Source of the DNA: an uncultured Alphaproteobacteria bacterium
GTDB taxonomy: Bacteria > Pseudomonadota > Alphaproteobacteria > Rs-D84 > CACZYB01
DNA: 32,000 nucleotides
Assembly (NCBI GenBank): GCA_934246625.1
Contig: CAKQHZ010000002.1
Span: 120,001 to 152,000, forward strand
Direction: 5' to 3'
Positions within the stretch are counted from its first letter, which is position 1. Each line of letters opens with the position of its first letter. The translations under genes and the position numbers were made by a program. Positions 17,268-31,281 of the stretch are shown piece after piece. Under the pieces are notes generated by a model, which worked only from the letters and a program-made list of their open reading frames with translations, searched no databases and had not been told where the DNA came from.

Positions 17268-17296
17268 TTGACTTTTTATCAAAAATAGTGTATAGT
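17268..17296 (+). promoter_or_regulatory. Sigma70-type promoter at the left edge of the phage-like cluster
   Basis: TTGACT (17268-17273), a 17-nt spacer, then TATAGT (17291-17296). Confidence 0.55.
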
Positions 17297-17344
17297 AAAT
17301 TTCAACTAATGGGATAAGTGTGCCCATTTTTATATTTAATTTAG

Positions 17345-17378
17345 CCTTCATATTTTCTTATGAAGGTTTTTCTTTTTT
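17345..17378 (+). terminator. Terminator-like hairpin in the leader, abutting the ribosome-binding site of the first phage-like gene
   Basis: An 8-bp stem (CCTTCATA / TATGAAGG) with a 6-nt loop is followed by TTTTTCTTTTTT. The AGGAG site and ATG 17391 come directly after. Confidence 0.55.
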
Positions 17379-17390
17379 AGGAGTTATGTT

Positions 17391-17678
17391 ATGAACGGAG
17401 GAATTGATTTATCCTGGTGGATAAGTGTTGTTGAAATACCCGTGTTCTTAGGTTTGTTTTGGATTATCCGAAATAATATGAGTTATTTGGAAAATTCGTT
17501 GAAACAACAAGAAGAAAAATCAAAACGAGAAATTGTTTCAATGATTGAAAATATTGCGTCTTTTCGTGTTGATGTGGCAATGAACTATGCCTCTATGTCT
17601 TATTTAAAAGACGTGGAAAATCGATTGACGGCTCATCTTCTTCGTATTGAAGAAAAAATTTCATCAGGAGGGTTTTGA
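17391..17678 (+). CDS. Small phage-type membrane protein (holin-like candidate)
   Basis: The 95-aa product has one N-terminal TM helix (WWISVVEIPVFLGLFWII) and then a coiled-coil-like tail. Its stop overlaps the start of the hydrolase gene (ATGA). Confidence 0.4.
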   Translation: MNGGIDLSWWISVVEIPVFLGLFWIIRNNMSYLENSLKQQEEKSKREIVSMIENIASFRVDVAMNYASMSYLKDVENRLTAHLLRIEEKISSGGF

Positions 17679-18124
17679 TGGCTTTTATAGAAAACAGAAA
17701 TAATCAAATTCGCAAAATGAAACTTGATAATAATTTTAATAAATTAGTTTTTGCAAAAACAATTTTTAAAGTTGTTGGCGAAAATCAAAATATTGAATTG
17801 TTAAAAGCTGTTGCAAATGTTGTGATGAACAGATTTTTATATGAATATGAAATTGATGATGAAATGACTTTTGTAAAATGTATTACAAATGTAGATTTGT
17901 TTCCATGTTGGAAAAATCTTAAATCAATGGATGAAATTGATTTGCAAAATTGCTTTTTTAAAAAATGTTTTTCTTTGGCTTTAAAAATGTTGAATGGAAA
18001 AGTGGAAGATAATACTTTGTCTTCTATTAAATTTAAAAAAGTTTCTGAGTGTCCTGTATGGGCTGTGGGTTTAAAATATGTTAAGGCGATAGATGATTAT
18101 CTTTTTTACAATAATTGTGATTAA
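17675..18124 (+). CDS. SleB-like cell-wall hydrolase (candidate endolysin)
   Basis: The pattern FAKTIFKVVGENQNIELLKAVANVVMNRF resembles the Hydrolase_2/SleB N-terminal motif (LA..iygEa....g..aVa.VvlNR). Its position is coupled to the holin-like ORF. Confidence 0.45.
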   Translation: MMAFIENRNNQIRKMKLDNNFNKLVFAKTIFKVVGENQNIELLKAVANVVMNRFLYEYEIDDEMTFVKCITNVDLFPCWKNLKSMDEIDLQNCFFKKCFSLALKMLNGKVEDNTLSSIKFKKVSECPVWAVGLKYVKAIDDYLFYNNCD

Positions 18125-18145
18125 CAATAAGCAAAGGAGTTTATT

Positions 18146-18880
18146 ATGACAGAGTTAAAAAATGATGAATTAAAAAAATCTGTGGAAAAAAAGGAAGAAA
18201 AAATTTCAAAATTAAAACCTGAAAATGTTCCTGTGAAATTTTGGAATGATGCAAATGGTGAAATTCGTGTTGATGAACTTTTGAAATCATATTTGGAATT
18301 GGAAAAAAAGTTTAGTGAAGTTTCAAAAAATAAAAATGATAAAAATATTTTGGAACTTGCTCTTGAAACAGATGTGCCTGCTGGTGAATATCAAATTGAA
18401 CTTCATCATAAACTTTTGACGATTGATGATAATGTTAATAAACGTTTGAAAGATGCAGGTTTTACAAATAAGCAAGCTCAACTTGTTTATGATTTGGGTG
18501 CTGAAATTATGATGCCTTTGATTGAGGAAATCAGCGGAGAATTTCGTATGTATCGAGAATTAGAAAAACTTGAAAAATACTTTGGTGGAGAAGAACGTTT
18601 TGATGAAATTTCACGACAAATTTCAAAGTGGGCAGAAAAAAATATTCCATCAGAAATTTATAATTCTCTTAACAAATCTTATTATGGTGTGATTGCTTTG
18701 TTTAATATGATGAATGGTGGTAATGAACCATCAATGATAAATATGGTTGGCGAAAAAGAAAATATTTTAAATGAAAAAAAATTAAAAGATATGATGAACG
18801 ATCCTCGTTATTGGAGAGATGGTGATAAAGATTTTATAAAAAAAGTTGATGATGGATTTAAAAATTTATATGACAGATAA
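18146..18880 (+). CDS. Capsid scaffolding-like protein (T7 gp9 position)
   Basis: The product is acidic and helical. Its N-terminus (PENVPVKFWNDANGEIRVDELLKSYLELEKKF) is typical of podovirus scaffold/assembly proteins. It lies upstream of the capsid gene. Confidence 0.45.
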   Translation: MTELKNDELKKSVEKKEEKISKLKPENVPVKFWNDANGEIRVDELLKSYLELEKKFSEVSKNKNDKNILELALETDVPAGEYQIELHHKLLTIDDNVNKRLKDAGFTNKQAQLVYDLGAEIMMPLIEEISGEFRMYRELEKLEKYFGGEERFDEISRQISKWAEKNIPSEIYNSLNKSYYGVIALFNMMNGGNEPSMINMVGEKENILNEKKLKDMMNDPRYWRDGDKDFIKKVDDGFKNLYDR

Positions 18881-18974: not shown

Positions 18975-19316
18975 ATGTTTAAAAGTATAATTAAAAAAGC
19001 TAAATCTACTGCTAAAAAAGTTGAAACAAAAAAGGCAGAAGTTAAAAAGGCACCTGCAAAAAAAGTTGCAGTAAAAAAAGTAGCTGAAAAGAAAGCTCCA
19101 GCTAAGAAAGTAGTTGCTAAAAAGGCACCTGCAAAAAAAGTTGCAGTAAAAAAAGTGGCTGTGAAAAAAGCTCCTGCTAAAAAAGTAGTTGCTAAAAAAG
19201 CACCTGCAAAAAAAGTAGTTGTAAAAAAAATCGTAGTTAAAAAAGCATCTGTTAAAACTACTTCTGTAAAAAAAACAGTTAAACCAGTTGCAAAAAAAAA
19301 AGTAGCAAAGAAGTAG
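18975..19316 (+). CDS. Lys/Ala/Val-rich histone-H1-like basic protein
   Basis: The 113-aa product is almost entirely KKAPAKKVAVKKVA-type repeats. This composition is typical of H1-like/AlgP-like DNA-binding tails. A GGAGAGAG ribosome-binding site precedes the ATG. Confidence 0.6.
   Translation: MFKSIIKKAKSTAKKVETKKAEVKKAPAKKVAVKKVAEKKAPAKKVVAKKAPAKKVAVKKVAVKKAPAKKVVAKKAPAKKVVVKKIVVKKASVKTTSVKKTVKPVAKKKVAKK
19047..19229 (+). repeat. 75-bp (25-codon) tandem repeat, about 2.4 copies, inside the Lys-rich gene
   Basis: Copy 1 is 19047-19121 and copy 2 is 19122-19196, differing at a few positions. A partial third copy runs from 19197. Confidence 0.85.
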
Positions 19317-19330: not shown

Positions 19331-19891
19331 TTGGTAAAATCAAATCCCAATAAAAAGGGTGATGAGGTAGTTCAAAAGAAAACTTCATTACTTTCTTCTT
19401 TGTTGGGATTTTTTTATACGAAAACAAAAAAAATACTTAGTGTTTATTTGTCTTTGGTTGTAATTTTTTCTTTTGCATTTGCATTTTACAAAGAACTTAA
19501 GGTTTATAGTTTAGTTCGTTTTGCAATGAACCCATTGGAAATTATGTTTATAAGTGTTGTTGGTGCAGTATTCTTGATTATTAAATTATTTATACCTGTT
19601 TTAATTGTTGTGGTTATTGCAAAATTATTTATGTTAAAGTCAAGAAAAATAAAGGTTCAACCAAAATTTAAAAAAAGTTTTAAAAGACAAACTTTGATTG
19701 CATTTGTGGTTTCATTTATTTTTGCAACTTTGTTTTATTATGATGTTGTTTTGGTTGCAAAATTTTCTCCACAACTTGTAAAATCTTCTGTTGAATTATT
19801 TGTGTTATTTTTTATATCTGTTTTATTTACTTTGTCTTCTATGTATGGTGTTATCAAAGGAGTTGCACCAGTTTTGGAAGAAAAAAAATAA
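19331..19891 (+). CDS. Polytopic membrane protein; start uncertain, possibly expressed as a -1 frameshift fusion with the upstream Lys-rich ORF
   Basis: It has four to five hydrophobic helices. The only upstream start is a TTG with no Shine-Dalgarno sequence. The first in-frame ATG would delete two helices. This frame is open back into the A10 tract at 19292-19301. Confidence 0.5.
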   Translation: MVKSNPNKKGDEVVQKKTSLLSSLLGFFYTKTKKILSVYLSLVVIFSFAFAFYKELKVYSLVRFAMNPLEIMFISVVGAVFLIIKLFIPVLIVVVIAKLFMLKSRKIKVQPKFKKSFKRQTLIAFVVSFIFATLFYYDVVLVAKFSPQLVKSSVELFVLFFISVLFTLSSMYGVIKGVAPVLEEKK

Positions 19892-20058: not shown

Positions 20059-20895
20059 ATGTCAATTTCTATTGATCAATCTTTTATAAAACAGTTTGAA
20101 GCAGAAGTTCATCTTGCTTTTCAACAAATGGGAACAAAACTTCGTTCTACTGTAAGAACAAAAAATGATGTAAAGGGAAGTTCAACAACTTTTCAAAAAG
20201 TAGGTAAGGGAACTGCAACTACAAAGGCAAGACACGGACTTGTTCCTGTGATGAATTTGGACCATACTCCTGTTGAATGTGTGCTTTCTGATTTCTATGC
20301 TGGTGATTGGATTGATGAGCTTGATGAAATCAAAACAAATGTTGATGAACGTCGTGTTGTTGCAAGTGCTGGTGCCTATGCTTTGGGTCGCAAAAGTGAT
20401 GAACTTATTATTTCAGAACTTAATCAAGCAAATGTGTCTGTTGCAATGGGTGATACTGGTTTAACAAAGGCAAAAATTCTTTCTGCTTTGGAATTACTTA
20501 ACAATAGCGATGTGCCAGATGATGGTCAAAGATTTGCAGTTGTTGGTGTGCATCAATGGAATGAACTTTTGAATATGAAAGAATTTTCTTCTGCGGAATA
20601 TGTTGGTGATACTTATCCTTTACTTAAGGGAACAGAAACAAGAAAATGGCTTGGCATAAATTGGATTATGCATAATGCTTTGCCATTTGATGAAAAAACA
20701 AAAGCAAGAAATTGCTTTATATATCACAAAAATTCTGTGGGTCATGCATCTGGTTGTGATGTGAAAACTGATATTACATGGCATGGTGAAAGGGCTGCGC
20801 ACTTTATTTCAAATTGTATGAGCCAAGGTGCAAAACTTATTGATAACACAGGTGTTGTGAAAATTATTTGTAAAGATACTTCTGTAATTGCTTAA
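20059..20895 (+). CDS. Major capsid protein (T7 gp10-like pattern)
   Basis: The pattern matches remembered T7 gp10A. The N-terminal FIKQFEAEVHLAFQQ...STTFQKVGKG resembles FLKVFGGEVLTAFAR...SAQFPVLGR. The central AGAYALGRKSDELIISEL and C-terminal YHKNSVGHA resemble MHRSAVGTV. It follows the scaffold-like gene. Confidence 0.75.
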   Translation: MSISIDQSFIKQFEAEVHLAFQQMGTKLRSTVRTKNDVKGSSTTFQKVGKGTATTKARHGLVPVMNLDHTPVECVLSDFYAGDWIDELDEIKTNVDERRVVASAGAYALGRKSDELIISELNQANVSVAMGDTGLTKAKILSALELLNNSDVPDDGQRFAVVGVHQWNELLNMKEFSSAEYVGDTYPLLKGTETRKWLGINWIMHNALPFDEKTKARNCFIYHKNSVGHASGCDVKTDITWHGERAAHFISNCMSQGAKLIDNTGVVKIICKDTSVIA

Positions 20896-20916: not shown

Positions 20917-21165
20917 ATGGCTATTGATTCAAAAAATTTATCTGTACTTGCTTACTCAAATGGATTTACTTTGTGGCATTATAAAACAACCGATACAAAA
21001 ACTGTTGTTGAAACATCAGGTTATTTTGATAAGGTTGCGAATATTTTTAACGAAGGCGATATGATTTTTACATCTGTGCTTGGTGGTGATACAAAGCAAA
21101 CAATTATTTATATTGTAAGTTCTGTTGAAAATGGTGTGGTTAGTGTTTCTAACTTACTTGCTTAA
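20917..21165 (+). CDS. Small protein downstream of the capsid gene (possible head accessory / decoration protein)
   Basis: The 82-aa ORF has a good ribosome-binding site (AAGGAA). The assignment rests on position only. Confidence 0.3.
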   Translation: MAIDSKNLSVLAYSNGFTLWHYKTTDTKTVVETSGYFDKVANIFNEGDMIFTSVLGGDTKQTIIYIVSSVENGVVSVSNLLA

Positions 21166-21177
21166 TTTAGTGTGATA

Positions 21178-21203
21178 AATCCCCAGTTTTGGGGATTTTT
21201 TTT
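21178..21203 (+). terminator. Strong intrinsic terminator after the capsid block (positionally analogous to T7 T-phi)
   Basis: The stem AATCCCC / GGGGATT has a 6-nt loop and is followed by a T8 run. The run ends directly at the AAGGAG of the next gene. Confidence 0.7.
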
Positions 21204-21215
21204 AAGGAGAAATTT

Positions 21216-21773
21216 ATGAATAATTTTACAATGATTGATTTGTGTTCAAAGGCTTTGCATAAAATTGGAGCAAATGAAATTGTTTCGTTTGATGAAAATA
21301 CTCCTGAAGCAGAATTAAGTAAAAGTATTTATCCTGTTTTAAAAAGGAAATTGCTTTCATCTTTTGTATGGAGTTTTGCAACAAAAGTTTTAAAACTTTC
21401 ATTGATAGAAGATGAAAATCAAACAGAGTTTCAATATTGTTTTTTGCTTCCATCTGATTTTATAAGAGCGATTAAAATATCACCAAAAGTTCCATATAAA
21501 ATTATTGAAAATAAATTGGTTGCGAATGTGTCTGATATAGTATTGACGTATGTTTCTGATGTTGATGAGGAAAATTTTTCACCTGCATTTTTAAATGCGT
21601 TTATTTATATTTTGTCCGCAGAATTATCTCTTTCTTTGTTGGACGATGTAGCAAAATTTAATTTGTTTTATCGACTTTATAATTCAGAATTAAGAGAGGC
21701 AAGATTTTTGGATAGTGCACAAGAAACGGCAAAACATTTTGATAATTTTTCTTTAATTGATGTAAGGTATTAG
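21216..21773 (+). CDS. Tail tubular protein A / adaptor (T7 gp11-like)
   Basis: I place the start at ATG 21216 after AAGGAG; the track start 21189 lies inside the terminator. The N-terminus IDLCSKALHKIGANEIVSFDENTPEAELSKSIY...FVWSFA parallels T7 gp11 [31 protein letters not shown]...GWTFN. Its size is also similar to that of gp11. Confidence 0.6.
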   Translation: MNNFTMIDLCSKALHKIGANEIVSFDENTPEAELSKSIYPVLKRKLLSSFVWSFATKVLKLSLIEDENQTEFQYCFLLPSDFIRAIKISPKVPYKIIENKLVANVSDIVLTYVSDVDEENFSPAFLNAFIYILSAELSLSLLDDVAKFNLFYRLYNSELREARFLDSAQETAKHFDNFSLIDVRY

Positions 21774-21781: not shown

Positions 21782-23686
21782 ATGTATAAACAAATTATTT
21801 CAAATACAAATTTTGCGTTTGGTGAAATTTCTCCTTATCTTTTTGGAAGGGGAGATATTGAGGCATATAAAAATGGTGCTATGACTATGTCAAATATGAC
21901 AGTTATTCCCACAGGTGGAGTTAAGCGTCGAGCAGGATTAAAGTTTTTGTGTGATTTGCCAAATGCTGGAAAATTGATAAATTTTGATTACTCTTCTTTG
22001 GAAAATTTTTTACTTTATTTCAGTGAAAATATTTTGTGGATTTATAATAGCATTGGTGAAAAGGTTGCAAGTCTTATGACTCCATTTTCCATTGCTCAAT
22101 TATCAAATATACGATGGTCGCAAAAGGGAAATCAATTATATATTGTGCATAAAGATGTTGCACCAAAAGTTTTGAAATATTATCCTCTTGAAGATAATTG
22201 GATTTTGGAAGATTGGCAATATGCGGTAAGTGATAAAAACTTTTCTTGTGAACCATTTGCAAAGTTTGAAGACACAGAAAATATTATGATTACTCCGTCT
22301 GGAAAAACTGGTGAAATTTCATTGGTTTCATCACAAAGTTTGTTTGATAATTCGTTTTTGGGTATTAAACTTCTTATTGATGGAGGTGAAGTTTGTATTA
22401 CTCAAATAATTTCTGGAACAGAGGCAAAGGCTGTTGTAAAAGCAGAATTGAGTGCTTTGGTTGCAACTTCTTCTTGGCAAGAACAGGCATTTTCGCTTAA
22501 GCGTGGTTTCCCAAAAAGTATTGCATTTCATCAAAACAGATTGGTGATTGGTGGGTCAAAAAGTTTGGCGAATAGATTGTGGTTTTCAAAAACAGGAGAA
22601 TATTTTAATTTTGATTTGGGTGAAGGTCTTGATGACGAAGCGATTGAGTTTGATTTATTGTCAGACAGAGTTAATGAAATTTTGTGTGTTTTTTCAGGAA
22701 AGCATTTACAAATTTTTACATCAGATTCTGAATGGATGGTGTCTGGGTATCCATTGACACCAACTTCATTGACGGTAAAGCAACAAACCAAAATTGGTTC
22801 TGTGGCAGATAAATTTATTTCACCAAAACTTGTTGAAGGTTCAACTATATTTGTTGCAAAAAACAACAAAGAAATTCGAGAATTTTTTTATGGAGATATT
22901 TCTGAAAATTATTCGTCCGAAGATTTAATTTTGCTTTCAAATCATTTAATGAATAAACCAAAAGAATTGGATTACGATATTAAAAACCGAATGCTTTATG
23001 TTTTGCAAAGTGATGGGACTATATCAATATTGCTTACAAATAAAACCAATGCTATAAATGCGTGGTTTAAGTATGAAACTCAAGGTGAATTTATTTCGCT
23101 TAATGTGTTTAATAATACTTTATATGTTATTGTTAAACGAGATGATAAGTATTTTTTAGAGTATTTGTCCGATGATGTGATGACAGATTCTTCTTTGACT
23201 TTTTCTTTTGATACAAAGGTTGATAAGATTGTTGGAATTTCACATTTGAACAATAAAATTGTTAGTGTTAATGCGGATAATTATGTTTTTGATGTAAAGG
23301 TTGAAAATAATGAACTTATACTTCCTTTGTCAGCAAAAAATGTTTTTTTGGGATTAAGTTATACACATACTTTGTGTCCGTTGCCAGTGTTAATAAATGG
23401 GGTTGTCCCACCAAAAATTGTGCGACTTTTTGAGTTGACTTTTCGTGTGGTTGATACTCCTTTATTACAAATTGATACTGGTGATGGAATAAGAAATATT
23501 ACTTGTATGGATTTTGATAAGGATAATATCCTTGATAATTCGTTGGTGCCATTTAATGGTGATATTCATATCAAAGCAAAAGGTTTGATTAAAAATTTTG
23601 AAGTCCCATTATGGAAGGTGCAAAGTTCAAAACCTTATAATGTAAAAATTTTAAATATTTCTGCAAAAATTGGTAGTGTAAAATAG
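21782..23686 (+). CDS. Tail tubular protein B / nozzle (T7 gp12-like)
   Basis: The N-terminus FAFGEISPYLFGRGD resembles gp12 LKGGISQQPDILRYPD. FHQNRLVIGGSKSLANRLWFSKTGEYFNFD resembles gp12 FFRNRLGFLSGENIILSRTAKYFNFY. It follows the gp11-like gene. Confidence 0.7.
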   Translation: MYKQIISNTNFAFGEISPYLFGRGDIEAYKNGAMTMSNMTVIPTGGVKRRAGLKFLCDLPNAGKLINFDYSSLENFLLYFSENILWIYNSIGEKVASLMTPFSIAQLSNIRWSQKGNQLYIVHKDVAPKVLKYYPLEDNWILEDWQYAVSDKNFSCEPFAKFEDTENIMITPSGKTGEISLVSSQSLFDNSFLGIKLLIDGGEVCITQIISGTEAKAVVKAELSALVATSSWQEQAFSLKRGFPKSIAFHQNRLVIGGSKSLANRLWFSKTGEYFNFDLGEGLDDEAIEFDLLSDRVNEILCVFSGKHLQIFTSDSEWMVSGYPLTPTSLTVKQQTKIGSVADKFISPKLVEGSTIFVAKNNKEIREFFYGDISENYSSEDLILLSNHLMNKPKELDYDIKNRMLYVLQSDGTISILLTNKTNAINAWFKYETQGEFISLNVFNNTLYVIVKRDDKYFLEYLSDDVMTDSSLTFSFDTKVDKIVGISHLNNKIVSVNADNYVFDVKVENNELILPLSAKNVFLGLSYTHTLCPLPVLINGVVPPKIVRLFELTFRVVDTPLLQIDTGDGIRNITCMDFDKDNILDNSLVPFNGDIHIKAKGLIKNFEVPLWKVQSSKPYNVKILNISAKIGSVK

Positions 23687-25545: not shown

Positions 25546-25573
25546 TTGACAAATTCGAATTAGTTTGTATAAT
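25546..25573 (+). promoter_or_regulatory. Near-consensus sigma70 promoter of sRNA candidate 1
   Basis: TTGACA (25546-25551), a 16-nt spacer, then TATAAT (25568-25573). Confidence 0.6.
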
Positions 25574-25579
25574 GAGGTT

Positions 25580-25710
25580 GTTTCGTTAATAAGAAAAAAG
25601 AATTTGCCGAGACGACCCCTCATTTCGGCAGATCTGGTGAAAGCCAGTAATAATCCCCTAAGTCATTCCCTCCTTATTTTCTCTCTCCTCGACTTGGGGG
25701 ATATTTTTTT
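25580..25710 (+). ncRNA. sRNA candidate 1: about 130 nt, three hairpins, with a terminator hairpin carrying a 26-nt CU-rich (anti-Shine-Dalgarno-like) loop
   Basis: A consensus promoter lies upstream. Hairpins are GCCGA...TCGGC and CTGG tgaaag CCAG. The third stem is TCCCCTAAGTC (25654-25664) / GACTTGGGGGA (25691-25701) around the loop ATTCCCTCCTTATTTTCTCTCTCCTC, followed by a T-run. Confidence 0.5.
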
Positions 25711-25792
25711 GTCGGGACGCCCGAGTAATCTCACAAAGGCAAACTAGAATTTTCTACTAACCCCGTAGAAAATTAAGTTTTTGTTTGTTCGG

Positions 25793-25825: not shown

Positions 25826-26220
25826 AGTTCAGAAAAGTTAGGATTTGTGAGCTTTTGTTGTGTTTTTGAGGGAAAATAGTCAAATTTGTAAAAAATGTGT
25901 GAAAAATTAGAATTTTCTGTTGAAATTTTGGTTTTAAATTGCTAAAAAAGAATCAGTTTTTGAAAAGATTCTCGAATCGATAGTAAAATTTAAAAAAAAG
26001 AATCGATTCTTGGTGGTTTTTTAAGGTTTTATTTTATAGACAATTTGAAATTGCAAAAAGAATCTTTTAATTTTTAATATGTTGTTTTTACAGCATTCTT
26101 TTTTGTTTTTTGATGGCTAATAAGTTGCCAAAAAAAGAATCTCTTGACTTTTTTTGTCGATTGCTTTAAGAATCGTTGTATGAGGCGAGTGGAAATTTTC
26201 CATTTTGTTTCAAACATATT

Positions 26221-26280
26221 CCCTGTTGCGTTCCTTTTCTCTCCTTTCCTCCTTCTCTCCTCGCAACGGGGGATTTTTTT
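26221..26280 (+). ncRNA. sRNA candidate 3 terminator module with a 31-nt CU-rich loop
   Basis: The stem CCCTGTTGCG (26221-26230) / CGCAACGGG (26262-26270) has one bulge. It encloses TTCCTTTTCTCTCCTTTCCTCCTTCTCTCCT and is followed by GGA and a T7 run. Confidence 0.45.
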
Positions 26281-26554
26281 ATACTTGAGTTTTTTTCTGA
26301 CTGATTCCCTTCGTTAATGTCTCACTTACGATTTGTTAAGATGCTAGTTTTTTGCAGGGTGGCGTGGCAACAAGCTAAGCAAACCTAAAACTTTTCACTA
26401 ATGCCGTTCAAAGTTTAAGGATAGCTATGCTTGGTGTCTCTTCGCAACGGGGGATTTTTTTTATATAATCTCTTCTCAAGATAGTTAAATTTGCATAAAA
26501 TGAAAAAAATAACTTGCGTTTTGGGAAAATATAGGTTATAAACTTGTTATCTTT

Positions 26555-26630
26555 GGCTAGGTAGCTCAGTCGGTAGAGCAAAGGACTGAAAATCCTTGTG
26601 TCGGCAGTTCGATTCTGCCCCTCGCCACCA
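26555..26630 (+). tRNA. tRNA-Phe (anticodon GAA) with encoded CCA
   Basis: A 76-nt cloverleaf was folded by hand. It has D arm GCTC/GAGC, anticodon stem AAGGA/TCCTT with loop CTGAAAA, a 5-nt variable loop, and T arm GGCAG-TTCGATT-CTGCC. The acceptor stem has 6 of 7 pairs (U4-C69 mismatch) and ends ACCA. Confidence 0.85.
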
Positions 26631-26663
26631 TTATTGGTCCCCCGTTTGGGGGATTTTTTATTT

Positions 26664-26969
26664 GTGTCGGCAGTTCGATTGTCCTCGTGATTGAAAATCA
26701 CTCGTTCGTCCCGTAAGCCTAAAACTTCGCCAAAGGCTCGTGTTTAGGCAACTATCGACTCCTGCCCCTCGCCACCACTATTGGTCCCTCATTTGGGGGA
26801 TTTTTTATTTGTGTCGGCAGTTCGATTGTCCTCGTGATTGAAAATCACTCGTTCGTCCCGTAAGCCTAAAACTTCGCCAAAGGCTCGTGTTTAGGCAACT
26901 ATCGACTCCTGCCCCTCGCCACCATTATTGGTCCCCCGCTTGGGGGATTTTTTATTTGTGTCGGCAGTT
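26664..26969 (+). repeat. 147-bp tandem repeat (2 full copies plus a 12-nt stub) made of the tRNA-Phe 3' part interrupted in the T-loop by an 81-bp insert, plus a terminator hairpin
   Basis: GTGTCGGCAGTTCGATT recurs at 26598 (in the tRNA), 26664, 26811 and 26958. Each full unit is this 17-mer, an 81-nt insert, CTGCCCCTCGCCACCA, and CCCCCgtttGGGGG with a T-run. A degenerate older unit lies at about 26290-26470. Confidence 0.9.
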
Positions 26970-27137: not shown

Positions 27138-28820
27138 ATGATAGGAGAAGGAAACTTCGGCTATAATTCACAAAATGATGATGAAATTCAAAATTTTATT
27201 CCACGAATCACTGTAATGGGTGTTGGTGGTGCTGGTTGTAATGCTGTTGGCAATATGATTTCTCAAGGTATTGATGGTGTGGATTTTGTTGTGGCAAATA
27301 CTGATGCTCAATCTTTGATGTTGTCAAAGGCTCCTCGTAAAATTCAACTTGGAAAACAAACTACTCGTGGATTTGGTGCTGGCTCAAAACCAGAAGTTGG
27401 TAAAACTGCGGCTGAAGAATCTTTGAATGAAATTGCAGATGTCGTTAAAAATGCAAATATTCTTTTCTTGACTGGTGGTATGGGTGGTGGAACTGGAAGT
27501 GGTGCTATACCTGTGATTGCATCTGTGGCAAAGGAAAAGGGAATTTTGACTATTGCAATTATTACAACTCCTTTTGATTTTGAAGGTGAAAAGAAAAAAC
27601 GTATTGCAGAGGAGGCAATAGCTGAATTACTTCCTAATGTGGATTGTGTTATTACTTTGCCAAATCAAAATTTGTTCAAGGTTGCGGATAAACAAATGTC
27701 ATTTATCAATGCCTTTAAACTTTCTGATAATGTCCTTTATGAAGGTGTTAGAAATATTACAGATTTGATTATGAAACCTGGTTTGATTAACCTTGATTTC
27801 GCAGATATAAGAACTGTGATGGAAGGTCAGGGAAAAACCATTATTGGAACAAGTGTTCAAAGTGGTGAAGATAGGGCATTGAAAGCAGTGAAGGGTGCTT
27901 TGCTTAATCCTCTTCTTTCTAATGAAAGTATTAGTGGGGCAAAGGGTATTTTGGTAAATATTACTGGTAATGCTGATAATCTTTCTTTGGAAGAAGTTAA
28001 TGATATTATGAATACAATTCGTGCCGATATAAATTCAAATGATGTTAATTTCGGCTTTGGAACTTGCTTTGACCCATCTATGGGTGATAGCTTGAAAGTT
28101 GCTATTATTGCAACTGGTATTAACGGTGATAATGTTAAAACAGATGTAAATACAACAAAAACAGAAGTTAATAATACTTCTTATAATTCATTTAATAATG
28201 TTGCAACTTCTAAACCTTACTCATTTACAAATATTGAAGAAAAAAAAGAAGAAGTTCGTGTTGAGCCAAAACCAATGGAAAAGCCTATGCCTAGTTTTAT
28301 GGAAGAAACAGTTGTAAGTGATAATAAACTTGATAATTTCTTTAAAACCGGTGATGAAAAGGATATTCAAGCCTTTATTGATGAGGAAGCAGAAAAACTT
28401 AATGTCGCAAGTTCTGTTTCAAATGAACTTTTTTCTGATGAAAAAAATAGTATTTTAGATAGTAATGAAGATACTTCTTCTTTGGATAATGTATCTTTGA
28501 ATGGCAATGGTGATGATGACCATGATCCTGAACCACCAAAGGGAAAAAAGAAAAATCCTTTGTCTTCTTTCTTTGATATGATTGGTGAAAAGGATAGTGA
28601 TGATACTTTTTTTGATGATGTGGAAAAAGATGATAATGGTGATGTAAAATTTGAAAATCAATCTGAAATATCAGATAAAAAAGAAGATGATAATGTCGTT
28701 TTCTTGGCTGGAAATTTGGATACAAAGGACCCAGATGATAAGCAAATTGATTTGATGGAAATGATAAAGAAAATGGAAGAAACTTTGGAAATTCCTGCGA
28801 TATTTAAAAAAGGTTCATAA
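27138..28820 (+). CDS. ftsZ: Cell-division protein FtsZ with a long acidic C-terminal linker
   Basis: It has GVGGAGCNAV and the tubulin signature GGMGGGTGSGA. An Asp/Glu/Asn-rich linker of about 230 aa follows. The conserved C-terminal peptide is LEIPAIFKK. Confidence 0.95.
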   Translation: MIGEGNFGYNSQNDDEIQNFIPRITVMGVGGAGCNAVGNMISQGIDGVDFVVANTDAQSLMLSKAPRKIQLGKQTTRGFGAGSKPEVGKTAAEESLNEIADVVKNANILFLTGGMGGGTGSGAIPVIASVAKEKGILTIAIITTPFDFEGEKKKRIAEEAIAELLPNVDCVITLPNQNLFKVADKQMSFINAFKLSDNVLYEGVRNITDLIMKPGLINLDFADIRTVMEGQGKTIIGTSVQSGEDRALKAVKGALLNPLLSNESISGAKGILVNITGNADNLSLEEVNDIMNTIRADINSNDVNFGFGTCFDPSMGDSLKVAIIATGINGDNVKTDVNTTKTEVNNTSYNSFNNVATSKPYSFTNIEEKKEEVRVEPKPMEKPMPSFMEETVVSDNKLDNFFKTGDEKDIQAFIDEEAEKLNVASSVSNELFSDEKNSILDSNEDTSSLDNVSLNGNGDDDHDPEPPKGKKKNPLSSFFDMIGEKDSDDTFFDDVEKDDNGDVKFENQSEISDKKEDDNVVFLAGNLDTKDPDDKQIDLMEMIKKMEETLEIPAIFKKGS

Positions 28821-28840
28821 AAATAATTTTTTAAACTTTG

Positions 28841-28875
28841 TCCCCCTTTGATTTTTTTCAAAGGGGGATTTTTTT
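28841..28875 (+). terminator. Strong intrinsic terminator after ftsZ, 9 nt before the portal-gene Shine-Dalgarno sequence
   Basis: A perfect 11-bp stem (TCCCCCTTTGA 28841-28851 / TCAAAGGGGGA 28858-28868) has a 6-nt loop and a T7 run. AAGGAG lies at 28885-28890. Confidence 0.8.
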
Positions 28876-28895
28876 AACTTAAATAAGGAGTTAAT

Positions 28896-30392
28896 ATGAT
28901 TGAAAAGGAAATTTTTGATAAAAATTTTGTTGATGATGTCTATAACAGATATTTGAATGCAATAGAGAAAAGGTCAGTGTGGGAAAGTTATTGGGAAGAA
29001 TGTTATGAATATGCTTTGCCACAAAAAAGTGGAACTTTTAATGGTGAAAATTTTTCTAATGTAAAGAAAAATACAAATGTTTTTGATTCCACTGCGGAAT
29101 CTGCAGTTGACAGACTTGCAAGTAGTCTTCTTTCCCAACTTACTCCACCATGGTCAAAATGGTTTGGGTTGGAATTTGGTATTGATATAGCTGATGATGA
29201 TAAAAAGGAAAAGTATCTTCAACTTGAAAATATTGAAAAGATTTTGCAATCTCATTTGGATAGGTCAAATTTTTATGTGGAAGCTCATCAATGCTATTTG
29301 GATTTAATTACGGTTGGAACTGCGGTTATGTTATTTGAAGAAAATGCAGTAGGTGAAAATTCCGCATTTAAGTTTACTTCTGTGCCAATGAATGAAGTTG
29401 CGTTTGAAGAAAATACGAATGGAAAGTTGGATACTGTATTTCGTCGTTCTTATGTCTCACTTGCAAATTTAAAAATAAGGTTTGCCAATGTTATTTTTGA
29501 TGAAAAACAACAGGAAATTATTTCCAAAAACCTTGATAAAAAAGTGTATGTGATAGAGGCTGTGTTGCCACGAATAACTTCTTCTGGACAACAGGGATAT
29601 AATTATATTGCGTTTATTGATGATGTAGAAAATATTTTTAATAGCTCTGTTAAAATAATTCTTAAAACAGGAGTATTTGCAAATTCTCCGTTTATTTGTT
29701 TCAGATGGCAAAAGGTTAGTTCTGAAATTTATGGAAGGTCTCCTGTGATGAAGGCTTTGCCAGATATTAAAACCGCAAATAAAGTTGTGGAACTTATTCT
29801 TAAAAATGCGTCTATTGCAGTAAGTGGTATTTGGCAAGCAGATGATGATGGCGTTTTGAATCCGCAAAATATAACTCTTGCTCCAGGAACAATTATTCCA
29901 AAGGCAGTTGGTTCTAGTGGGCTTACTCCACTTAGAAGTGGTGCCGATTTTGATGTTTCTCAGTTGGTATTGTCTGATTTGCGTGCAAAGATAAATCATT
30001 GTTTACTTGTGGATCAATTAGATGTGTCAAATAATTTTAAAATGACTGCAACAGAAGTGATGGAAAGAATAAATCAAATATCTCGTGTGTTGGGGGCAAC
30101 CTATGGCAGACTTCAATCTGAATTTTTGACACCTGTGGTTATTCGTGCAATTTCTATTTTAAAAAGACGTGGTGAAATTTCAGATATACTTGTTAATGGA
30201 TATGAAGTTGATTTGAAATATCAATCTCCACTTGCTCAAAATCAAATTGTTCGTGATGCAGAAAATATTTTGAATTGGATAAAAACTTTGTCAGAAGTGT
30301 GTGGTGATGCAACAAGTGTTATTGATAAAAAAGCGGTTGCGTTATATTTGGGAAAAGTTTTTGGTATTTCAGAACGATTGATTTGTGCATAG
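28896..30392 (+). CDS. Portal / head-to-tail connector protein (T7 gp8-like)
   Basis: VDDVYNRYLNAIEKRSVWESYWEECYEYALP parallels gp8 AKSVYERLKNDRAPYETRAQNCAQYTIP. YGRSPVMKALPDIKTANKV parallels YGRSYIEEYLGDLRSLENL. MTATEVMERINQISRVLGATYGRLQSEFLTPVV parallels VTAEEIRYVASELEDTLGGVYSILSQELQLPLV. Confidence 0.8.
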   Translation: MIEKEIFDKNFVDDVYNRYLNAIEKRSVWESYWEECYEYALPQKSGTFNGENFSNVKKNTNVFDSTAESAVDRLASSLLSQLTPPWSKWFGLEFGIDIADDDKKEKYLQLENIEKILQSHLDRSNFYVEAHQCYLDLITVGTAVMLFEENAVGENSAFKFTSVPMNEVAFEENTNGKLDTVFRRSYVSLANLKIRFANVIFDEKQQEIISKNLDKKVYVIEAVLPRITSSGQQGYNYIAFIDDVENIFNSSVKIILKTGVFANSPFICFRWQKVSSEIYGRSPVMKALPDIKTANKVVELILKNASIAVSGIWQADDDGVLNPQNITLAPGTIIPKAVGSSGLTPLRSGADFDVSQLVLSDLRAKINHCLLVDQLDVSNNFKMTATEVMERINQISRVLGATYGRLQSEFLTPVVIRAISILKRRGEISDILVNGYEVDLKYQSPLAQNQIVRDAENILNWIKTLSEVCGDATSVIDKKAVALYLGKVFGISERLICA

Positions 30393-30402
30393 TGAGGATA
30401 TT

Positions 30403-31281
30403 ATGGAGGAAGATTTTAGCTTGCCTTTTTTGGCTGGGTTTGATGTCCTTAAAATTCCAGTTATTGAAAATGGGATTCCTGTATGGCCTGAAAAATTCCC
30501 GATTGAAAAAATTGAGGAATTAAAGGTTCGGGTTGGAATGACAAAATTTTCTTCGCAAATGCTACTTAATCCTGTGCAATTAAATAAAGGGCGATTTGAT
30601 ATAAACAAGTTAAAATTTTATAATTCTGATTTGTGTGTAGAGGAACATAATCACCTTTTGACCTTTACAATAAATGGTAAAAAAGTTGTCAGTTGTTCGT
30701 GTTGGTGGGATCCTTCGTATGGTTCAATCGGTGGTGATGGAAGTGTTATATCTGTTGTCTTTATTGATGTGGAAGGGCATTACTATCTTCATGACATAAA
30801 ATATCTTTATCATTCGGATAAGAAAAAGGAAGAAATTCAATCGGCATTGGAACAATGTCAGCAGGTTGGTGAGTTTGTTAAGGCAAACTATATACCTTCG
30901 GTTTATGTTGAAACGAATGGTATTGGTAAATTTTTACCAGAGTTTTTAAGAAATGAGTTTTTGAAAATGGGAATTTCCGCTGGGGTTGTTGAAAAGGTTT
31001 CTAGGGTTTCAAAAAATCTTAGGATTTTAGATGCTTTTGATGTGATTACTTCGGCAGGATATTTATATGTTAATGAAAAGGTGAAAAATACCCCTTGGGT
31101 TGCGGAATTTTGTGATTGGGGTGTTGATTCAAAAGCTCATGATGATGGACTTGATAGTGTGGCTGGTGCAATTTCGTCTGTGCCAGCCAAGTTGCCTATT
31201 TCTGTGTTGGCAAAACAAAGAAAAGTAAGTTTTGCAGGGAAAACGTATAGGGTAAAGACAAATTTTGATATAGACTTTTGA
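30403..31281 (+). CDS. Large terminase, C-terminal half (ATPase lid region plus RNase-H-like nuclease domain)
   Basis: It has its own GAGGA ribosome-binding site and ATG 30403; the track start is GTG 30385. It has WPEKFPIEKIEELKVRVGMTKFSSQMLLNP and nuclease motifs WWDPSYGSIGGDGSVISVVF, VYVETNGIG and AHDDGLDSVAGA. It continues where ORF 24876-25484 stops. Confidence 0.75.
   Translation: MEEDFSLPFLAGFDVLKIPVIENGIPVWPEKFPIEKIEELKVRVGMTKFSSQMLLNPVQLNKGRFDINKLKFYNSDLCVEEHNHLLTFTINGKKVVSCSCWWDPSYGSIGGDGSVISVVFIDVEGHYYLHDIKYLYHSDKKKEEIQSALEQCQQVGEFVKANYIPSVYVETNGIGKFLPEFLRNEFLKMGISAGVVEKVSRVSKNLRILDAFDVITSAGYLYVNEKVKNTPWVAEFCDWGVDSKAHDDGLDSVAGAISSVPAKLPISVLAKQRKVSFAGKTYRVKTNFDIDF

What the first reader, a model, noticed from the sequence alone, without database searches (positions are those of the whole stretch)
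17268..31281. Stripped-down T7-like podovirus head-tail-lysis module embedded in housekeeping DNA: candidate domesticated particle (GTA-like) or unusual defective prophage
By protein pattern I recognise homologues of T7 gp8 (portal), gp10 (capsid), gp11, gp12, the gp17 N-terminal domain and the large terminase. A scaffold-like gene and a holin-like / SleB-like lysis pair are also present. In this window there is no RNA or DNA polymerase, integrase, repressor or small terminase. The large internal core/ejection proteins (gp14-16 equivalents) are also missing; only a 148-aa ORF sits between the gp12-like and gp17-like genes. Promoters are host sigma70-like. A host-type cassette with its own promoter and terminator, an sRNA/tRNA array and ftsZ all sit inside the cluster. 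Structural genes retained without replication genes is the hallmark of gene-transfer agents and other domesticated phage particles. I am not aware of a genetically characterised one with a T7-type gene set. The alternative is a decaying prophage.
Basis: partly seen in the sequence, partly recalled or inferred. Interest (0 to 1): 0.8.

Follow-up and report, generated by a model that had tools for sequence, protein, structure and literature searches.

The report
Domesticated T7-like phage particle genes
A gut alphaproteobacterium carries, among its housekeeping genes, an intact head, tail, DNA-packaging and lysis gene set from a T7-like phage; hundreds of related bacteria have kept the same set under selection, so it looks like a previously unrecognised type of gene-transfer-agent-like particle.

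Summary
Window 17.3-32.0 kb encodes T7-type portal, scaffold, capsid, gp11, gp12, a gp14-like remnant, a fibre N-domain, large terminase and a lysis pair. There is no polymerase, integrase, small terminase or gp15/16 in the window or in the 10 kb beyond it.

- The terminase gene is split cleanly into two ORFs 4.9 kb apart.
- This split is conserved across a whole clade, and both halves are under purifying selection.
- The cluster belongs to a large chromosomal family. At least 80 species-level genomes have portals ≥49% identical, and 577 portal relatives were found. They span Magnetospirillum, Azospirillum, Caenispirillum, Terasakiella and gut MAGs.
- Family members sit at fixed chromosomal positions, match host GC (29-74%) and diverge in step with FtsZ.

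dN/dS is 0.09-0.17 for capsid, portal and terminase, against 0.21 for ftsZ. The nearest real phages are only 31-35% identical in portal. No replication or ejection genes occur in 87 loci.

Best reading: an ancient domesticated podovirus module, GTA-like. Whether it makes particles or transfers DNA is untested. I found no published description; it has only been flagged automatically as an incomplete prophage. A conserved sRNA array, tRNA-Phe and ftsZ lie inside the split terminase.

The parts
17268..17385 (+). Promoter (TTGACT-17-TATAGT) followed by a short leader with two hairpins; the second is an intrinsic-terminator-like hairpin with a U-tract, placed just before the first gene's RBS
   Evidence: The promoter and both hairpins are conserved in L184, with a compensatory change in the terminator stem. 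Folding z-scores are -2.8 and -3.2.
17391..17678 (+). 95-aa protein with one N-terminal TM segment and a coiled coil (holin- or spanin-like). It sits next to the hydrolase or TerL in most loci that carry it
   Evidence: phrog_29007, E 2e-20. Homologue in 23 loci in the L091-query search (one search lists the window-query hits), beside SleB/TerL in most.
17675..18124 (+). SleB/CwlJ-type cell-wall hydrolase (endolysin candidate)
   Evidence: PF07486, E 1.2e-4. The L091 relative is listed with an unmarked precomputed PF07486 hit.
18146..18880 (+). T7 gp9-type scaffolding protein
   Evidence: PF05396, E 1.3e-8. Conserved in about 70 loci.
18975..19316 (+). Lys/Ala-rich histone-H1/HC2-like protein, found only in this clade. 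Repeat number varies between strains (113 aa here, 138 aa in L001)
   Evidence: PF07382, E 5.6e-10. Gene calls. The RBS AGGAGAGAGAAA is conserved in L013/L184 and L038.
19331..19891 (+). 186-aa multi-pass membrane protein, found only in this clade; possible holin replacement. Two terminator-like hairpins follow it (19927-19953, 20012-20027)
   Evidence: 52% identity in L013, 27% in L038. No family match.
20059..20895 (+). Major capsid protein
   Evidence: PF19821, E 3.2e-77. 88% identical in L013, dN/dS 0.15. About 70% identical to many alphaproteobacterial MAG proteins.
20917..21165 (+). 82-aa conserved head-associated protein (equivalent to MEP301 gp30). A terminator-like hairpin follows at 21177-21198, in the position where T7 has its terminator after the capsid gene
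   Evidence: phrog_18004, E 2.7e-14..
21189..21773 (+). gp11-type tail tubular protein A / adaptor
   Evidence: phrog_394, E 4e-38. 29% identical to MEP301 tubular protein A.
21782..23686 (+). gp12-type nozzle / tail tubular protein B
   Evidence: PF25675, E 1.3e-8. dN/dS 0.27.
23708..24154 (+). 148-aa small internal-virion-protein-like remnant (gp14-like). It is the only trace of the ejection-protein set
   Evidence: phrog_418, E 3.3e-5. No homologues of the MEP301 internal virion proteins in 87 loci.
24167..24889 (+). Short tail fibre: T7 gp17 N-terminal (tail-attachment) domain plus a roughly 125-aa C-terminal part
   Evidence: PF03906, E 2.5e-5. phrog_1640, E 3.8e-11.
24876..25484 (+). Large terminase, N-terminal piece: Walker A (FRSSGKST), Walker B (ICDDVE) and motif III (GTPHT). 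It ends cleanly at ...IYKV
   Evidence: 83% identical in L013, dN/dS 0.09.
25546..25712 (+). Perfect sigma70 promoter (12/12) and a roughly 135-nt sRNA ('sRNA A'). A covarying terminator stem encloses an invariant CU-rich loop, CAUUCCCUCCUUAUUUUCUCUCUCCUC
   Evidence: 9 pairs with compensatory changes; 79-159 bits in 18 clade loci; nothing convincing elsewhere. No Rfam family.
26170..26284 (+). Second CU-rich sRNA-like unit with a terminator ('sRNA B'). L018 has a similar CU-rich unit by eye, but the model gave no hit there
   Evidence: weak model hits of 19-29 bits in the window, L012, L013/L184, L038 and L009/L185.
26555..26969 (+). tRNA-Phe (26555-26630) followed by 2.4 copies of a 147-bp tandem repeat. 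The repeat duplicates the tRNA 3' end, its terminator, and a T-arm fragment carrying an ~80-nt insert
27138..28820 (+). Genuine host ftsZ (GTPase domain, C-domain, long linker, C-terminal LEIPAIFKK peptide). It has its own conserved promoter and a strong terminator at 28840-28869
   Evidence: dN/dS 0.21.
28896..30392 (+). T7 gp8-type portal. It starts 26 nt after the ftsZ terminator
   Evidence: PF12236, E 1.9e-119. 5-12 synonymous and 0 non-synonymous differences in each of five strain comparisons; dN/dS 0.14-0.17 between species.
30403..31281 (+). Large terminase, C-terminal piece: the end of the ATPase domain plus a T7-type RNase-H-like nuclease with acidic residues retained (WWDP, ETNG, HDDGLD)
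   Evidence: dN/dS 0.10-0.19. Nearest phage TerLs are T7-type maturase B at 26-30% identity.
31359..32000 (+). 213-aa membrane-anchored protein, found only in this clade and of unknown function. It follows TerL-C (directly in most clade loci; about 1.6 kb downstream in L015); a Bbp19-like gene and an HTH_3 gene follow it beyond the window
   Evidence: No Pfam match.

Best explanation
The region is the local copy of an ancient, chromosomally fixed, vertically inherited remnant of a podovirus. Its structural module and terminase are T7-type, and its nearest living phage relatives by portal are HTVC010P/MEP301-type phages. The host lineage has kept exactly the genes needed to build a head (portal, scaffold, capsid, 82-aa head protein), a short tail (gp11, gp12, a short fibre), fill the head with DNA (large terminase) and lyse the cell (hydrolase plus membrane proteins). 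It has lost replication and recombination genes, integrase, any recognisable small terminase and the large ejection proteins.

Proposed working (inferred, not shown): in a subpopulation, the same-strand array from 17.3 kb onwards is transcribed through its many internal terminators. Procapsids assemble on the portal and scaffold. The two terminase polypeptides together package DNA with little or no sequence specificity, because no small terminase is present. The cell then lyses and releases podovirus-like particles carrying host DNA. Recipient cells would have to take up that DNA with their own uptake machinery, because no ejectosome is present. In short, it would be a gene-transfer-agent-like viriform of a new ancestry.

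In this clade the terminase gene was split by insertion of an sRNA cassette. Later, tRNA-Phe, ftsZ and the portal gene came to lie between the two halves.
For: Shown:
- Gene identities.
- Housekeeping genes on both sides, and no phage replication, integration or polymerase genes in the window or 10 kb beyond it.
- Same gene order and same chromosomal position (accB-accC upstream, ftsZ inside) in a species with 78% portal identity and dS of about 1.
- Same split-terminase/ftsZ arrangement in loci down to 52-59% portal identity, with GC ranging from 29% to 65%.
- A second clade of 13 species-level genomes holds a compact ~12-kb version (prfB-yhdP on one side, mlaC and usually gltX on the other; both flanks visible in 9 of the 13 loci, one side only in 4). 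The flank proteins have diverged to 45-60% identity.
- At least 80 species genomes have portals ≥49% identical, and 577 portal relatives were found in all. The portal tree groups Azospirillum, Caenispirillum, the Magnetospirillum group and the gut clades separately. Portal GC follows host GC.
- Portal identity tracks FtsZ-core identity, Spearman 0.95, n=9.
- dN/dS: capsid 0.15, portal 0.14-0.17, TerL-N 0.09, TerL-C 0.10-0.19, gp12 0.27, against ftsZ 0.17-0.21. There are no stops. The portal has 0 non-synonymous against 5-12 synonymous differences between strains.
- The two TerL halves abut exactly on intact relatives and keep all catalytic motifs.
- The nearest phages are only 31-35% identical in portal and 26-30% in TerL.
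- Of the nearest phage's proteome, only the structural core has homologues in 87 bacterial loci.
- Relatives carry a PF11351 GTA_holin_3TM protein and a CI-like HTH+S24 repressor next to the cluster.
- Terminator-like hairpins are enriched fourfold, and 20 of 25 are on the coding strand. The leader terminator and the ftsZ-portal terminator are conserved with compensatory changes.
Against: - There is no expression, particle or packaging evidence of any kind.
- The terminase is in two pieces. No precedent known to me shows that such a split, inside the ATPase domain, is functional.
- The window clade lacks the repressor/a109/a146 module and the PF11351 holin within the DNA I could see. It may be a degenerate branch in which single genes are kept for another reason.
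- Capsid and scaffold lengths equal those of the 35-kb phages. Nothing points to the small head typical of known GTAs, so a full-size head could carry the whole cluster.
- Tail and fibre genes evolve faster (dN/dS 0.4-0.5).
- In the AMB-1 subgroup only portal, Bbp19 and scaffold were found in the 21 kb examined, so some lineages may have lost parts.
Confidence: 0.6

Rival explanations
1. The module is domesticated but used for something other than gene transfer. It could make killing particles (a podovirus-type bacteriocin), drive lysis-coupled release of cell contents or DNA for biofilm, or protect against related phages through expression of structural proteins or terminase.
For: The same conservation and selection evidence applies. 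The lysis genes are among the conserved genes. A CI-like S24 repressor in relatives resembles SOS-controlled pyocin regulation. Loss of the ejection proteins would cripple DNA delivery.
Against: The terminase ATPase and nuclease motifs and the portal are among the most strongly constrained genes. That only makes sense if DNA is packaged. No toxin or effector gene is visible in the cluster.
Confidence: 0.17
2. It is a helper-dependent mobile element (a phage satellite or capsid-forming island) that uses a co-resident phage for replication, excision or missing virion parts.
For: It encodes its own capsid, portal and terminase but no replication genes, as capsid-forming islands do. Relatives have a repressor module. 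IMG/VR lists many 17-25 kb 'proviruses' with this portal.
Against: No integrase, att sites or replication initiator were seen. The chromosomal position is fixed across deeply diverged species. Host genes are interspersed in the cluster. GC is fully matched to the host. None of these fits a mobile island.
Confidence: 0.07
3. It is a defective prophage in slow decay, and the split terminase is its first lethal lesion.
For: TerL is interrupted. There is no small terminase, ejection proteins or repressor locally. Host genes lie inside the cluster. Tools such as PHAST call such regions 'incomplete prophage' (PMC7860042).
Against: Every gene is intact in all relatives examined. dN/dS is 0.09-0.27 for core genes, equal to or below ftsZ. 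The split is old (portal divergence down to about 52%), yet both halves keep all motifs.
Confidence: 0.04
4. It is an active small temperate phage whose missing functions are encoded further away than the DNA examined.
For: Relatives carry a CI-like repressor, as in a lysogeny switch. I could only see ±10 kb around each portal.
Against: Both flanks are housekeeping genes in the window, L091 and L184. Position is conserved across species. The nearest phage genomes are no more than 35% identical.
Confidence: 0.03

Closest known systems
RcGTA-type gene transfer agents of Alphaproteobacteria (Rhodobacter capsulatus, Caulobacter, Dinoroseobacter)
   Same: Both are phage-derived head-tail-packaging gene sets fixed in alphaproteobacterial chromosomes. 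Both are vertically inherited, lack replication and integration genes, are under purifying selection, can be dispersed among host genes, and are released by lysis. Relatives of this cluster even carry a PF11351 'GTA_holin_3TM' protein.
   Different: The ancestry is unrelated. RcGTA is siphovirus-like, with an HK97-type capsid, a prohead protease, a tail tube and a P22-like headful terminase (PMC7947584). This cluster is podovirus-like, with a T7-type portal, scaffold, gp11/gp12 nozzle and T7-type terminase, and has no protease or tail tube. Its function is untested.
FpGTA of Faecalibacterium prausnitzii (Borodovich et al. 2026, PMC12946183)
   Same: Both are in gut bacteria and both are podovirus-like domesticated clusters of similar size (10.5 + 5.5 kb) with TerL, portal, scaffold, capsid, a short tail and lysis genes, and no replication genes.
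   Different: FpGTA is in Firmicutes and is experimentally shown to make particles with ~9 kb of random host DNA. It has a TerS candidate. I did not compare the sequences. That paper calls FpGTA the first podovirus-like GTA-like element and the first found in the human gut microbiome.
HTVC010P-type pelagiphages and Methylophilales phage MEP301 (nearest true phages by portal)
   Same: The order of the structural module is the same: (TerL) ... portal, small genes, scaffold, capsid, ~85-aa protein, tubular A, tubular B. Portal is 31-35% identical and capsid and tubular proteins about 29%.
   Different: These phages are 34-35 kb. They carry YqaJ/ERF/SSB/RusA recombination and replication genes, TerS, about 5 kb of internal virion proteins, long fibres and sometimes an integrase. 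None of these is present here. MEP301's TerL is of a different type (no hit).
Coliphage T7 and other Autographiviridae
   Same: Gene families and order gp8-gp9-gp10-gp11-gp12-(gp14)-gp17 ... gp19. There is a terminator after the capsid gene. TerL is of the T7 maturase-B type.
   Different: There is no single-subunit RNA polymerase, DNA polymerase, gp15/gp16 or gp18. The element is chromosomal and immobile.
Late-operon antitermination (lambda PR'-tR'/Q; GafZ in the Caulobacter GTA, PMC11150451)
   Same: A constitutive-looking promoter is followed at once by a terminator in front of lysis and then structural genes, and many terminators lie along a long same-strand array.
   Different: No antiterminator has been identified here. 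This is an analogy of layout only.
DicF sRNA of the E. coli Qin prophage (blocks ftsZ translation)
   Same: An sRNA gene inside a phage-derived region has a loop complementary to the ftsZ ribosome-binding site. ftsZ is the top predicted target in the window at -25.4 kcal/mol, against a mean of -8.1.
   Different: There is no sequence relation. The CU-rich loop pairs with any strong Shine-Dalgarno sequence, and ftsZ is not the top target in all relatives. The interaction is untested.

Membership tests
Gene transfer agent (GTA / viriform, functional definition) | Phage-derived structural, packaging and lysis genes resident in the cellular chromosome and inherited vertically | tested here: met
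   Conserved position and order across species. Portal tree groups by host taxon and GC is matched to the host. Co-divergence with FtsZ.
Gene transfer agent (GTA / viriform, functional definition) | No genes for its own replication, excision or integration | tested here: met
   None in the window or 10 kb beyond it. None of the nearest phage's replication or recombination genes appears in 87 loci. Limited to ±10 kb around each portal.
Gene transfer agent (GTA / viriform, functional definition) | Genes maintained by purifying selection at host level, not decaying | tested here: met
   dN/dS 0.09-0.27 for core genes against 0.17-0.21 for ftsZ, and no stops.
Gene transfer agent (GTA / viriform, functional definition) | Produces particles that package essentially random host DNA, too little to carry the whole encoding locus | not testable with these tools
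   Needs EM and sequencing of DNase-protected DNA. Capsid and scaffold sizes equal those of 35-kb phages, so a small head cannot be assumed.
Gene transfer agent (GTA / viriform, functional definition) | Transfers DNA to recipient cells | not testable with these tools
   Needs a genetic marker-transfer assay.
Gene transfer agent (GTA / viriform, functional definition) | Production controlled by host regulatory circuits | tested here: inconclusive
   A conserved sigma70-type promoter with a leader terminator. A CI-like S24 repressor lies next to the cluster in 65 of the loci, but was not found in this clade. No regulator was identified in the window.
RcGTA-like family (Rhodogtaviriformidae) | Homologues of the RcGTA head-tail cluster (HK97 capsid, prohead protease, tail tube, etc.) | tested here: not met
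   Pfam and PHROG assignments are all T7/podovirus types. Only a PF11351 holin homologue in relatives is shared.
Autographiviridae (T7-like phages) | T7-type structural gene set and order (gp8, 9, 10, 11, 12, 17, 19) | tested here: met
   The order is rearranged in this clade but canonical in relatives.
Autographiviridae (T7-like phages) | Phage-encoded single-subunit RNA polymerase and own DNA replication genes | tested here: not met
   No ORF of suitable size or family in the window or flanks.
Autographiviridae (T7-like phages) | Internal core / ejection proteins gp14-gp15-gp16 | tested here: not met
   Only a 148-aa gp14-like remnant is present. No large internal proteins in 87 loci.
Phage satellites / capsid-forming chromosomal islands | Integrase, att sites, replication initiator, variable insertion sites | tested here: not met
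   None seen. The chromosomal position is fixed.

The most novel reading that the evidence does not exclude
Rhodospirillales-type Alphaproteobacteria and their gut relatives possess a second, independently domesticated gene-transfer-agent lineage of podovirus (T7-structural) ancestry, which is ancient and widespread. In the clade that contains this window it has become entangled with the cell-division machinery. The terminase works as two polypeptides encoded 5 kb apart. ftsZ lies between the halves. A clade-specific sRNA made from within the split terminase gene damps translation of ftsZ and cluster genes. The portal and terminase-C genes are reached only by reading through the ftsZ terminator, so that particle production is coupled to a block of division.
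Probability: 0.25. Interest if true: 0.9.

Novelty: new variant of a known kind. Interest (0 to 1): 0.8.

Why it matters
All genetically characterised alphaproteobacterial GTAs go back to one siphovirus-like domestication, apart from Bartonella's separate agent. The only podovirus-like candidate so far was reported in 2026 in a Firmicute. A second, unrelated particle-gene set, conserved across many genera, would show that domestication of phage particles happened repeatedly in this class. The carriers include cultivable models (Magnetospirillum, Azospirillum, Caenispirillum, Terasakiella) and abundant uncultured gut lineages. This gives a directly testable system for several questions:
- what selective benefit keeps such particles;
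- whether older reports of ~10-kb random-DNA particles in Azospirillum have this origin;
- whether a packaging motor can work when split within its ATPase domain.

It also matters for annotation. Prophage finders and IMG/VR list these loci as (incomplete) proviruses.

Tried and rejected
- The exact-sequence look-up of TerL-C from the GTG start found nothing, because the called gene starts at ATG 30403. The portal look-up worked.
- Rfam gave no family for the sRNA-like units at gathering or relaxed thresholds.
- I tested whether the TerL interruption could be an intron. No intron family was found in L018 or the window, and the insert holds ftsZ and the portal, so I rejected this.
- I compared the downstream 83-aa HTH protein with the family's S24 repressor. 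There was no similarity.
- I tried to locate the AMB-1 capsid through a capsid homologue search. The top 120 hits did not reach Magnetospirillum, so completeness in that subgroup stays open.
- Nei-Gojobori dS is saturated or ill-behaved for pairs with very different GC (L009, L015, L038). Only the pairs with L011-L016 and the within-species pairs were used.
- The sRNA target prediction is suggestive for ftsZ in the window but not consistent across relatives. It is kept as a hypothesis only.
- Boyer et al. 2008 (Azospirillum particles) is not in the library, so I used the secondary account in PMC3899980.
- Six literature searches found no description of a T7-like or podovirus-like domesticated element in Alphaproteobacteria.

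Full report
**1. What is in the window.**
The window has about 30% G+C. Its first 17 kb are ordinary cellular genes:
- a two-partner secretion pair (haemagglutinin repeats, ShlB);
- NUDIX, a hexapeptide transferase, glmS, mltA, TraT;
- accB and accC.

From 17.3 kb to the end of the window every gene is on the + strand.
- a 95-aa membrane/coiled-coil protein (phrog_29007);
- a SleB-type hydrolase (weak here; its relative in L091 has an unmarked precomputed PF07486 hit);
- T7-type scaffold (PF05396, 1.3e-8);
- capsid (PF19821, 3.2e-77);
- an 82-aa head-associated protein (phrog_18004);
- gp11 (phrog_394, 4e-38);
- gp12 nozzle (PF25675, 1.3e-8);
- a 148-aa protein with a weak match to small internal virion proteins (phrog_418);
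- a 240-aa protein with the T7 fibre N-domain;
- portal (PF12236, 1.9e-119);
- terminase pieces.

FtsZ (27138-28820) is a full-length, genuine FtsZ. One tRNA-Phe lies at 26555-26630.

Contigs from gut metagenomes (several from Hadza samples) carry the identical portal. They show that the 10 kb beyond the window hold a Bbp19-like gene, a small HTH gene and then mipZ, truA, fmt, def, rmuC and HU. So no complete phage lies just outside the window.

**2. The terminase is split.**
TerL-N (24876-25484, 202 aa) carries Walker A, Walker B and motif III and stops after ...GTPHTLDTIYKV. TerL-C (30403-31281, 292 aa) begins MEEDFSLPFLAGFDVLKIPV... Aligned with intact 470-530-aa homologues from related genomes, the two pieces abut in a short variable linker. 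Nothing is missing, and the nuclease acidic residues are retained.

Between the halves lie:
- a 1.65-kb non-coding stretch with sRNA-like units;
- tRNA-Phe and a 147-bp tandem repeat;
- ftsZ;
- the portal gene.

**3. The cluster is one member of a large chromosomal family.**
The portal has thousands of homologues. Those above about 50% identity are on bacterial chromosomes, including contigs of up to 5 Mb from Magnetospirillum and Paramagnetospirillum.

The best 80 are all ≥49% identical. They come from uncultured gut, rumen and termite Alphaproteobacteria and from Magnetospirillum, Phaeospirillum, Azospirillum, Caenispirillum, Terasakiella, Thalassospiraceae, Haematospirillum, Telmatospirillum and others.

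Mapping the window's proteins on these loci shows a shared set: portal, Bbp19-like, scaffold, capsid, p82, gp11, gp12, (fibre), TerL, the 95-aa protein and the hydrolase. It appears in three layouts:
- a compact ~12-kb version;
- a version in T7 order, with host genes inserted between blocks;
- the window's layout with split TerL.

The compact version (L091) is: CI-like HTH+S24 repressor, divergent from two conserved unknown genes, then a 104-aa ORF overlapping TerL, TerL, the 95-aa protein, the hydrolase, a PF11351 'GTA_holin_3TM' protein, portal, Bbp19, scaffold, capsid, p86, gp11, gp12 and three small ORFs. Housekeeping genes flank it on both sides.

The repressor and two-gene module lies upstream of the portal in 65-68 of the loci, but not in the window clade within the DNA available.

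**4. Vertical inheritance.**
- In a species whose portal is 78% identical (dS about 1), the cluster lies at the same place (accB-accC upstream) and in the same order, including sRNA, ftsZ, portal and TerL-C.
- In the compact clade, 13 species-level genomes have the cluster at the same place, between prfB-yhdP and mlaC (usually with gltX beyond). Both flanks are visible in 9 of the 13 loci and only one side in the other 4. The flanking proteins have diverged to 45-60% identity.
- A neighbour-joining portal tree groups Azospirillum, Caenispirillum, the Magnetospirillum group and the two gut clades separately. Portal G+C follows locus G+C from 0.29 to 0.74.
- Within the window clade, portal identity tracks identity of the FtsZ core domain (Spearman 0.95, n=9).
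- The split-TerL layout occurs in genomes with G+C from 29% to 65%, so it is old.

**5. Selection.**
| Gene | dN/dS (window vs L011-L013) |
|---|---|
| TerL-N | 0.09 |
| TerL-C | 0.10-0.19 |
| portal | 0.14-0.17 |
| capsid | 0.15 |
| gp12 | 0.27 |
| scaffold | 0.32 |
| gp11, p82, fibre, p148 | 0.42-0.53 |
| ftsZ (host benchmark) | 0.17-0.21 |

No orthologue has an internal stop. Between strains of the window's own species the portal differs by 5-12 synonymous and 0 non-synonymous substitutions in each of five comparisons. This excludes a decaying prophage. It also shows that both terminase halves are still needed.

**6. Ancestry and what was lost.**
- By portal, the nearest phages are Pelagibacter phage EXVC031P and Methylophilales phage MEP301 (35%) and HTVC010P-type pelagiphages (about 31%).
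- MEP301 has the same module order as the compact cluster.
- Searching its whole proteome against 87 bacterial loci gives hits only for portal, scaffold, capsid, gp30 (=p82), tubular proteins A and B, and a fibre N-terminus. There are none for YqaJ/ERF/SSB/RusA, TerS or the ~5 kb of internal virion proteins.
- The TerL is of the T7 maturase-B type, 26-30% identical to Autographiviridae and relatives.

So 'T7-like' is right for the structural and packaging genes. The element is not a member of the T7 family, because polymerases and gp15/16 are absent.

**7. Regulatory anatomy (shown as sequence features; function inferred).**
- A promoter at 17268-17296 is conserved in L184. A leader follows it with two hairpins. 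The second is a terminator with a U-tract ending a few bases before the RBS of the first gene. Its stem shows a compensatory change between species.
- Terminator-like hairpins also follow the clade-specific membrane-protein gene, follow p82 (the place where T7 has its terminator after the capsid gene), and follow ftsZ 26 nt before the portal start codon. The last is conserved with compensatory changes in five loci.
- In all, 25 terminator-like sites occur in 16.9-32.0 kb against 6.1±2.1 expected, and 20 are on the coding strand.
- This layout resembles late operons controlled by processive antitermination (lambda Q; GafZ in the Caulobacter GTA). No antiterminator was identified.

**8. The island inside the terminase.**
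- Directly after TerL-N lies a perfect sigma70 promoter and a ~135-nt RNA. A covarying terminator stem encloses an invariant CU-rich loop.
- A covariance model finds this RNA at 79-159 bits in 18 loci of the split-TerL clade. It finds nothing convincing in about 70 loci of other clades.
- In 7 of 10 metagenome contigs found through the loop motif alone, it lies about 190 nt downstream of a TerL-N gene.
- In L018, the deepest branch of the clade, only about 0.55 kb of sRNA-bearing DNA separates the two TerL halves. Insertion of this cassette is therefore the likely original splitting event. The arrival of tRNA-Phe, ftsZ and the portal between the halves would be later rearrangements (inference).
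- The loop is complementary to strong Shine-Dalgarno regions. In the window the ftsZ start region is the best predicted target (-25.4 kcal/mol; mean -8.1, sd 5.0) and the HC2-like gene is third. In relatives, other cluster genes rank higher. A DicF-like role is a hypothesis only.

**9. Mechanism proposed.**
Shown: the gene set, its integrity, its conservation, its immobility and its selection.

Inferred: the products assemble into podovirus-like particles, and the terminase, acting as two polypeptides in this clade, fills them with DNA. Without a recognisable small terminase, packaging is probably not specific for the element. Release is by the hydrolase and membrane proteins. Without ejection proteins, delivery would depend on recipient uptake functions, as in RcGTA.

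In most relatives a CI-like autocleavable repressor suggests SOS control. In the window clade the control is unknown, and may rest on the promoter-terminator leader.

**10. Rivals.**
- A decaying prophage is contradicted by sections 4-5.
- A satellite or island is contradicted by the fixed position and the lack of an integrase.
- An active phage is contradicted by the flanks and by the distance to any phage.
- A domesticated particle with a non-transfer role (killing, lysis, defence) cannot be excluded. The strong constraint on terminase and portal argues that DNA packaging is part of the function.

**11. Is it known?**
Six full-text searches found no description of a T7-like or podovirus-like domesticated element in Alphaproteobacteria.
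- Borodovich et al. 2026 call FpGTA of Faecalibacterium the first podovirus-like GTA-like element and the first from the human gut microbiome.
- Surveys of alphaproteobacterial GTAs use RcGTA homologues only.
- A genome-streamlining study of M. gryphiswaldense lists PHAST 'incomplete prophages interspersed with important genes' without interpreting them. I did not check whether any of those regions is this cluster.
- IMG/VR lists many 17-25 kb 'proviruses' with this portal.
- Particles with ~10 kb of random host DNA were reported from Azospirillum lipoferum and strain B510 and attributed to RcGTA-like genes. Three other Azospirillum genomes carry the present cluster (L084, L088, L090), so that attribution deserves a second look.

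**12. Limits.**
- I saw only ±10 kb around each portal.
- I could not scan whole genomes.
- dS is near saturation for the between-species pairs.
- The tree is a quick NJ tree without support values.
- There is no expression or particle evidence.

Noticed in passing
window 25546-25712 (also L013 7370-7500, L014 3503-3640, L016 2869-3006, L038 6657-6775, L018 998-1118): An uncatalogued, clade-specific sRNA with a perfect sigma70 promoter. A covarying stem encloses an invariant ~27-nt CU-rich loop. It lies just downstream of the TerL-N gene wherever the context is known. The loop is complementary to the ribosome-binding sites of ftsZ (27127-27138) and the HC2-like gene (18951-18962).
   Followed up: yes
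window 26170-26284 and 25723-25827: Further CU-rich, terminator-ended units (weak paralogues of the sRNA above). A similar unit lies in front of TerL-C in L018 (~1320-1460).
   Followed up: partly
window 26615-26969: A 147-bp tandem repeat (2.4 copies, 96% matches) starts inside the 3' end of tRNA-Phe. Each copy repeats the tRNA 3' end, its terminator, and a T-arm fragment interrupted by about 80 nt. This may be a trace of repeated integration or duplication at the tRNA.
   Followed up: partly
window 25946-26141: Four copies of AAAAGAATC, which contains a GANTC methylation-type site, are spaced 50-77 nt apart in the non-coding stretch upstream of ftsZ. There are 5 matches in the whole window against 1.4 expected.
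   Followed up: partly
window 18975-19316: A histone-H1/HC2-like Lys/Ala-rich gene sits between the scaffold and capsid genes throughout the split-terminase clade. Its repeat number differs between strains (113 aa here, 138 aa in L001). It could be a DNA-condensing protein, but there is no evidence for this.
   Followed up: partly
window 28840-28869: A strong terminator (12-bp stem, z -4.6) lies directly between the ftsZ stop and the portal start. It is conserved with compensatory changes in five relatives. Portal and TerL-C have no promoter of their own in the 26-nt gap between this terminator and the portal start codon.
   Followed up: yes
L018 1-12000: In the deepest branch of the clade the two terminase halves are adjacent, separated only by the sRNA cassette. 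ftsZ-portal-Bbp19 lies 5 kb further on. This looks like an intermediate state of the rearrangement. Its FtsZ core is only 43% identical to the window's.
   Followed up: partly
window 31359-32000: A 213-aa protein with an N-terminal membrane anchor and a repetitive beta-rich C-terminus. It is conserved after TerL-C in this clade only and has no family match.
   Followed up: no
window 10485-11788 and 16467-16967: Three secreted Cys-rich proteins. One carries a tandem RPIIFSPYSD repeat and is inserted between accC and the cluster. In the related species L184 the region upstream of the Trans_reg_C/TraT genes, where two of these genes lie in the window, holds instead a protein with a BPP-1 Mtd N-domain (PF18454).
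   Followed up: no
window 20-4564: A two-partner secretion system (filamentous-haemagglutinin-repeat protein and ShlB/FhaC transporter) with small genes between that look like immunity genes.
   Followed up: no
phage record MT838907.1 (5 kb, human faecal sample) and IMG/VR UViGs L093-L172: Public 'phage' and 'provirus' records carry this family's portal at 48-53% identity. Most from isolate genomes are cut at 10-25 kb (one is 44 kb). They are probably chromosomal clusters of this family mislabelled as viruses.
   Followed up: partly
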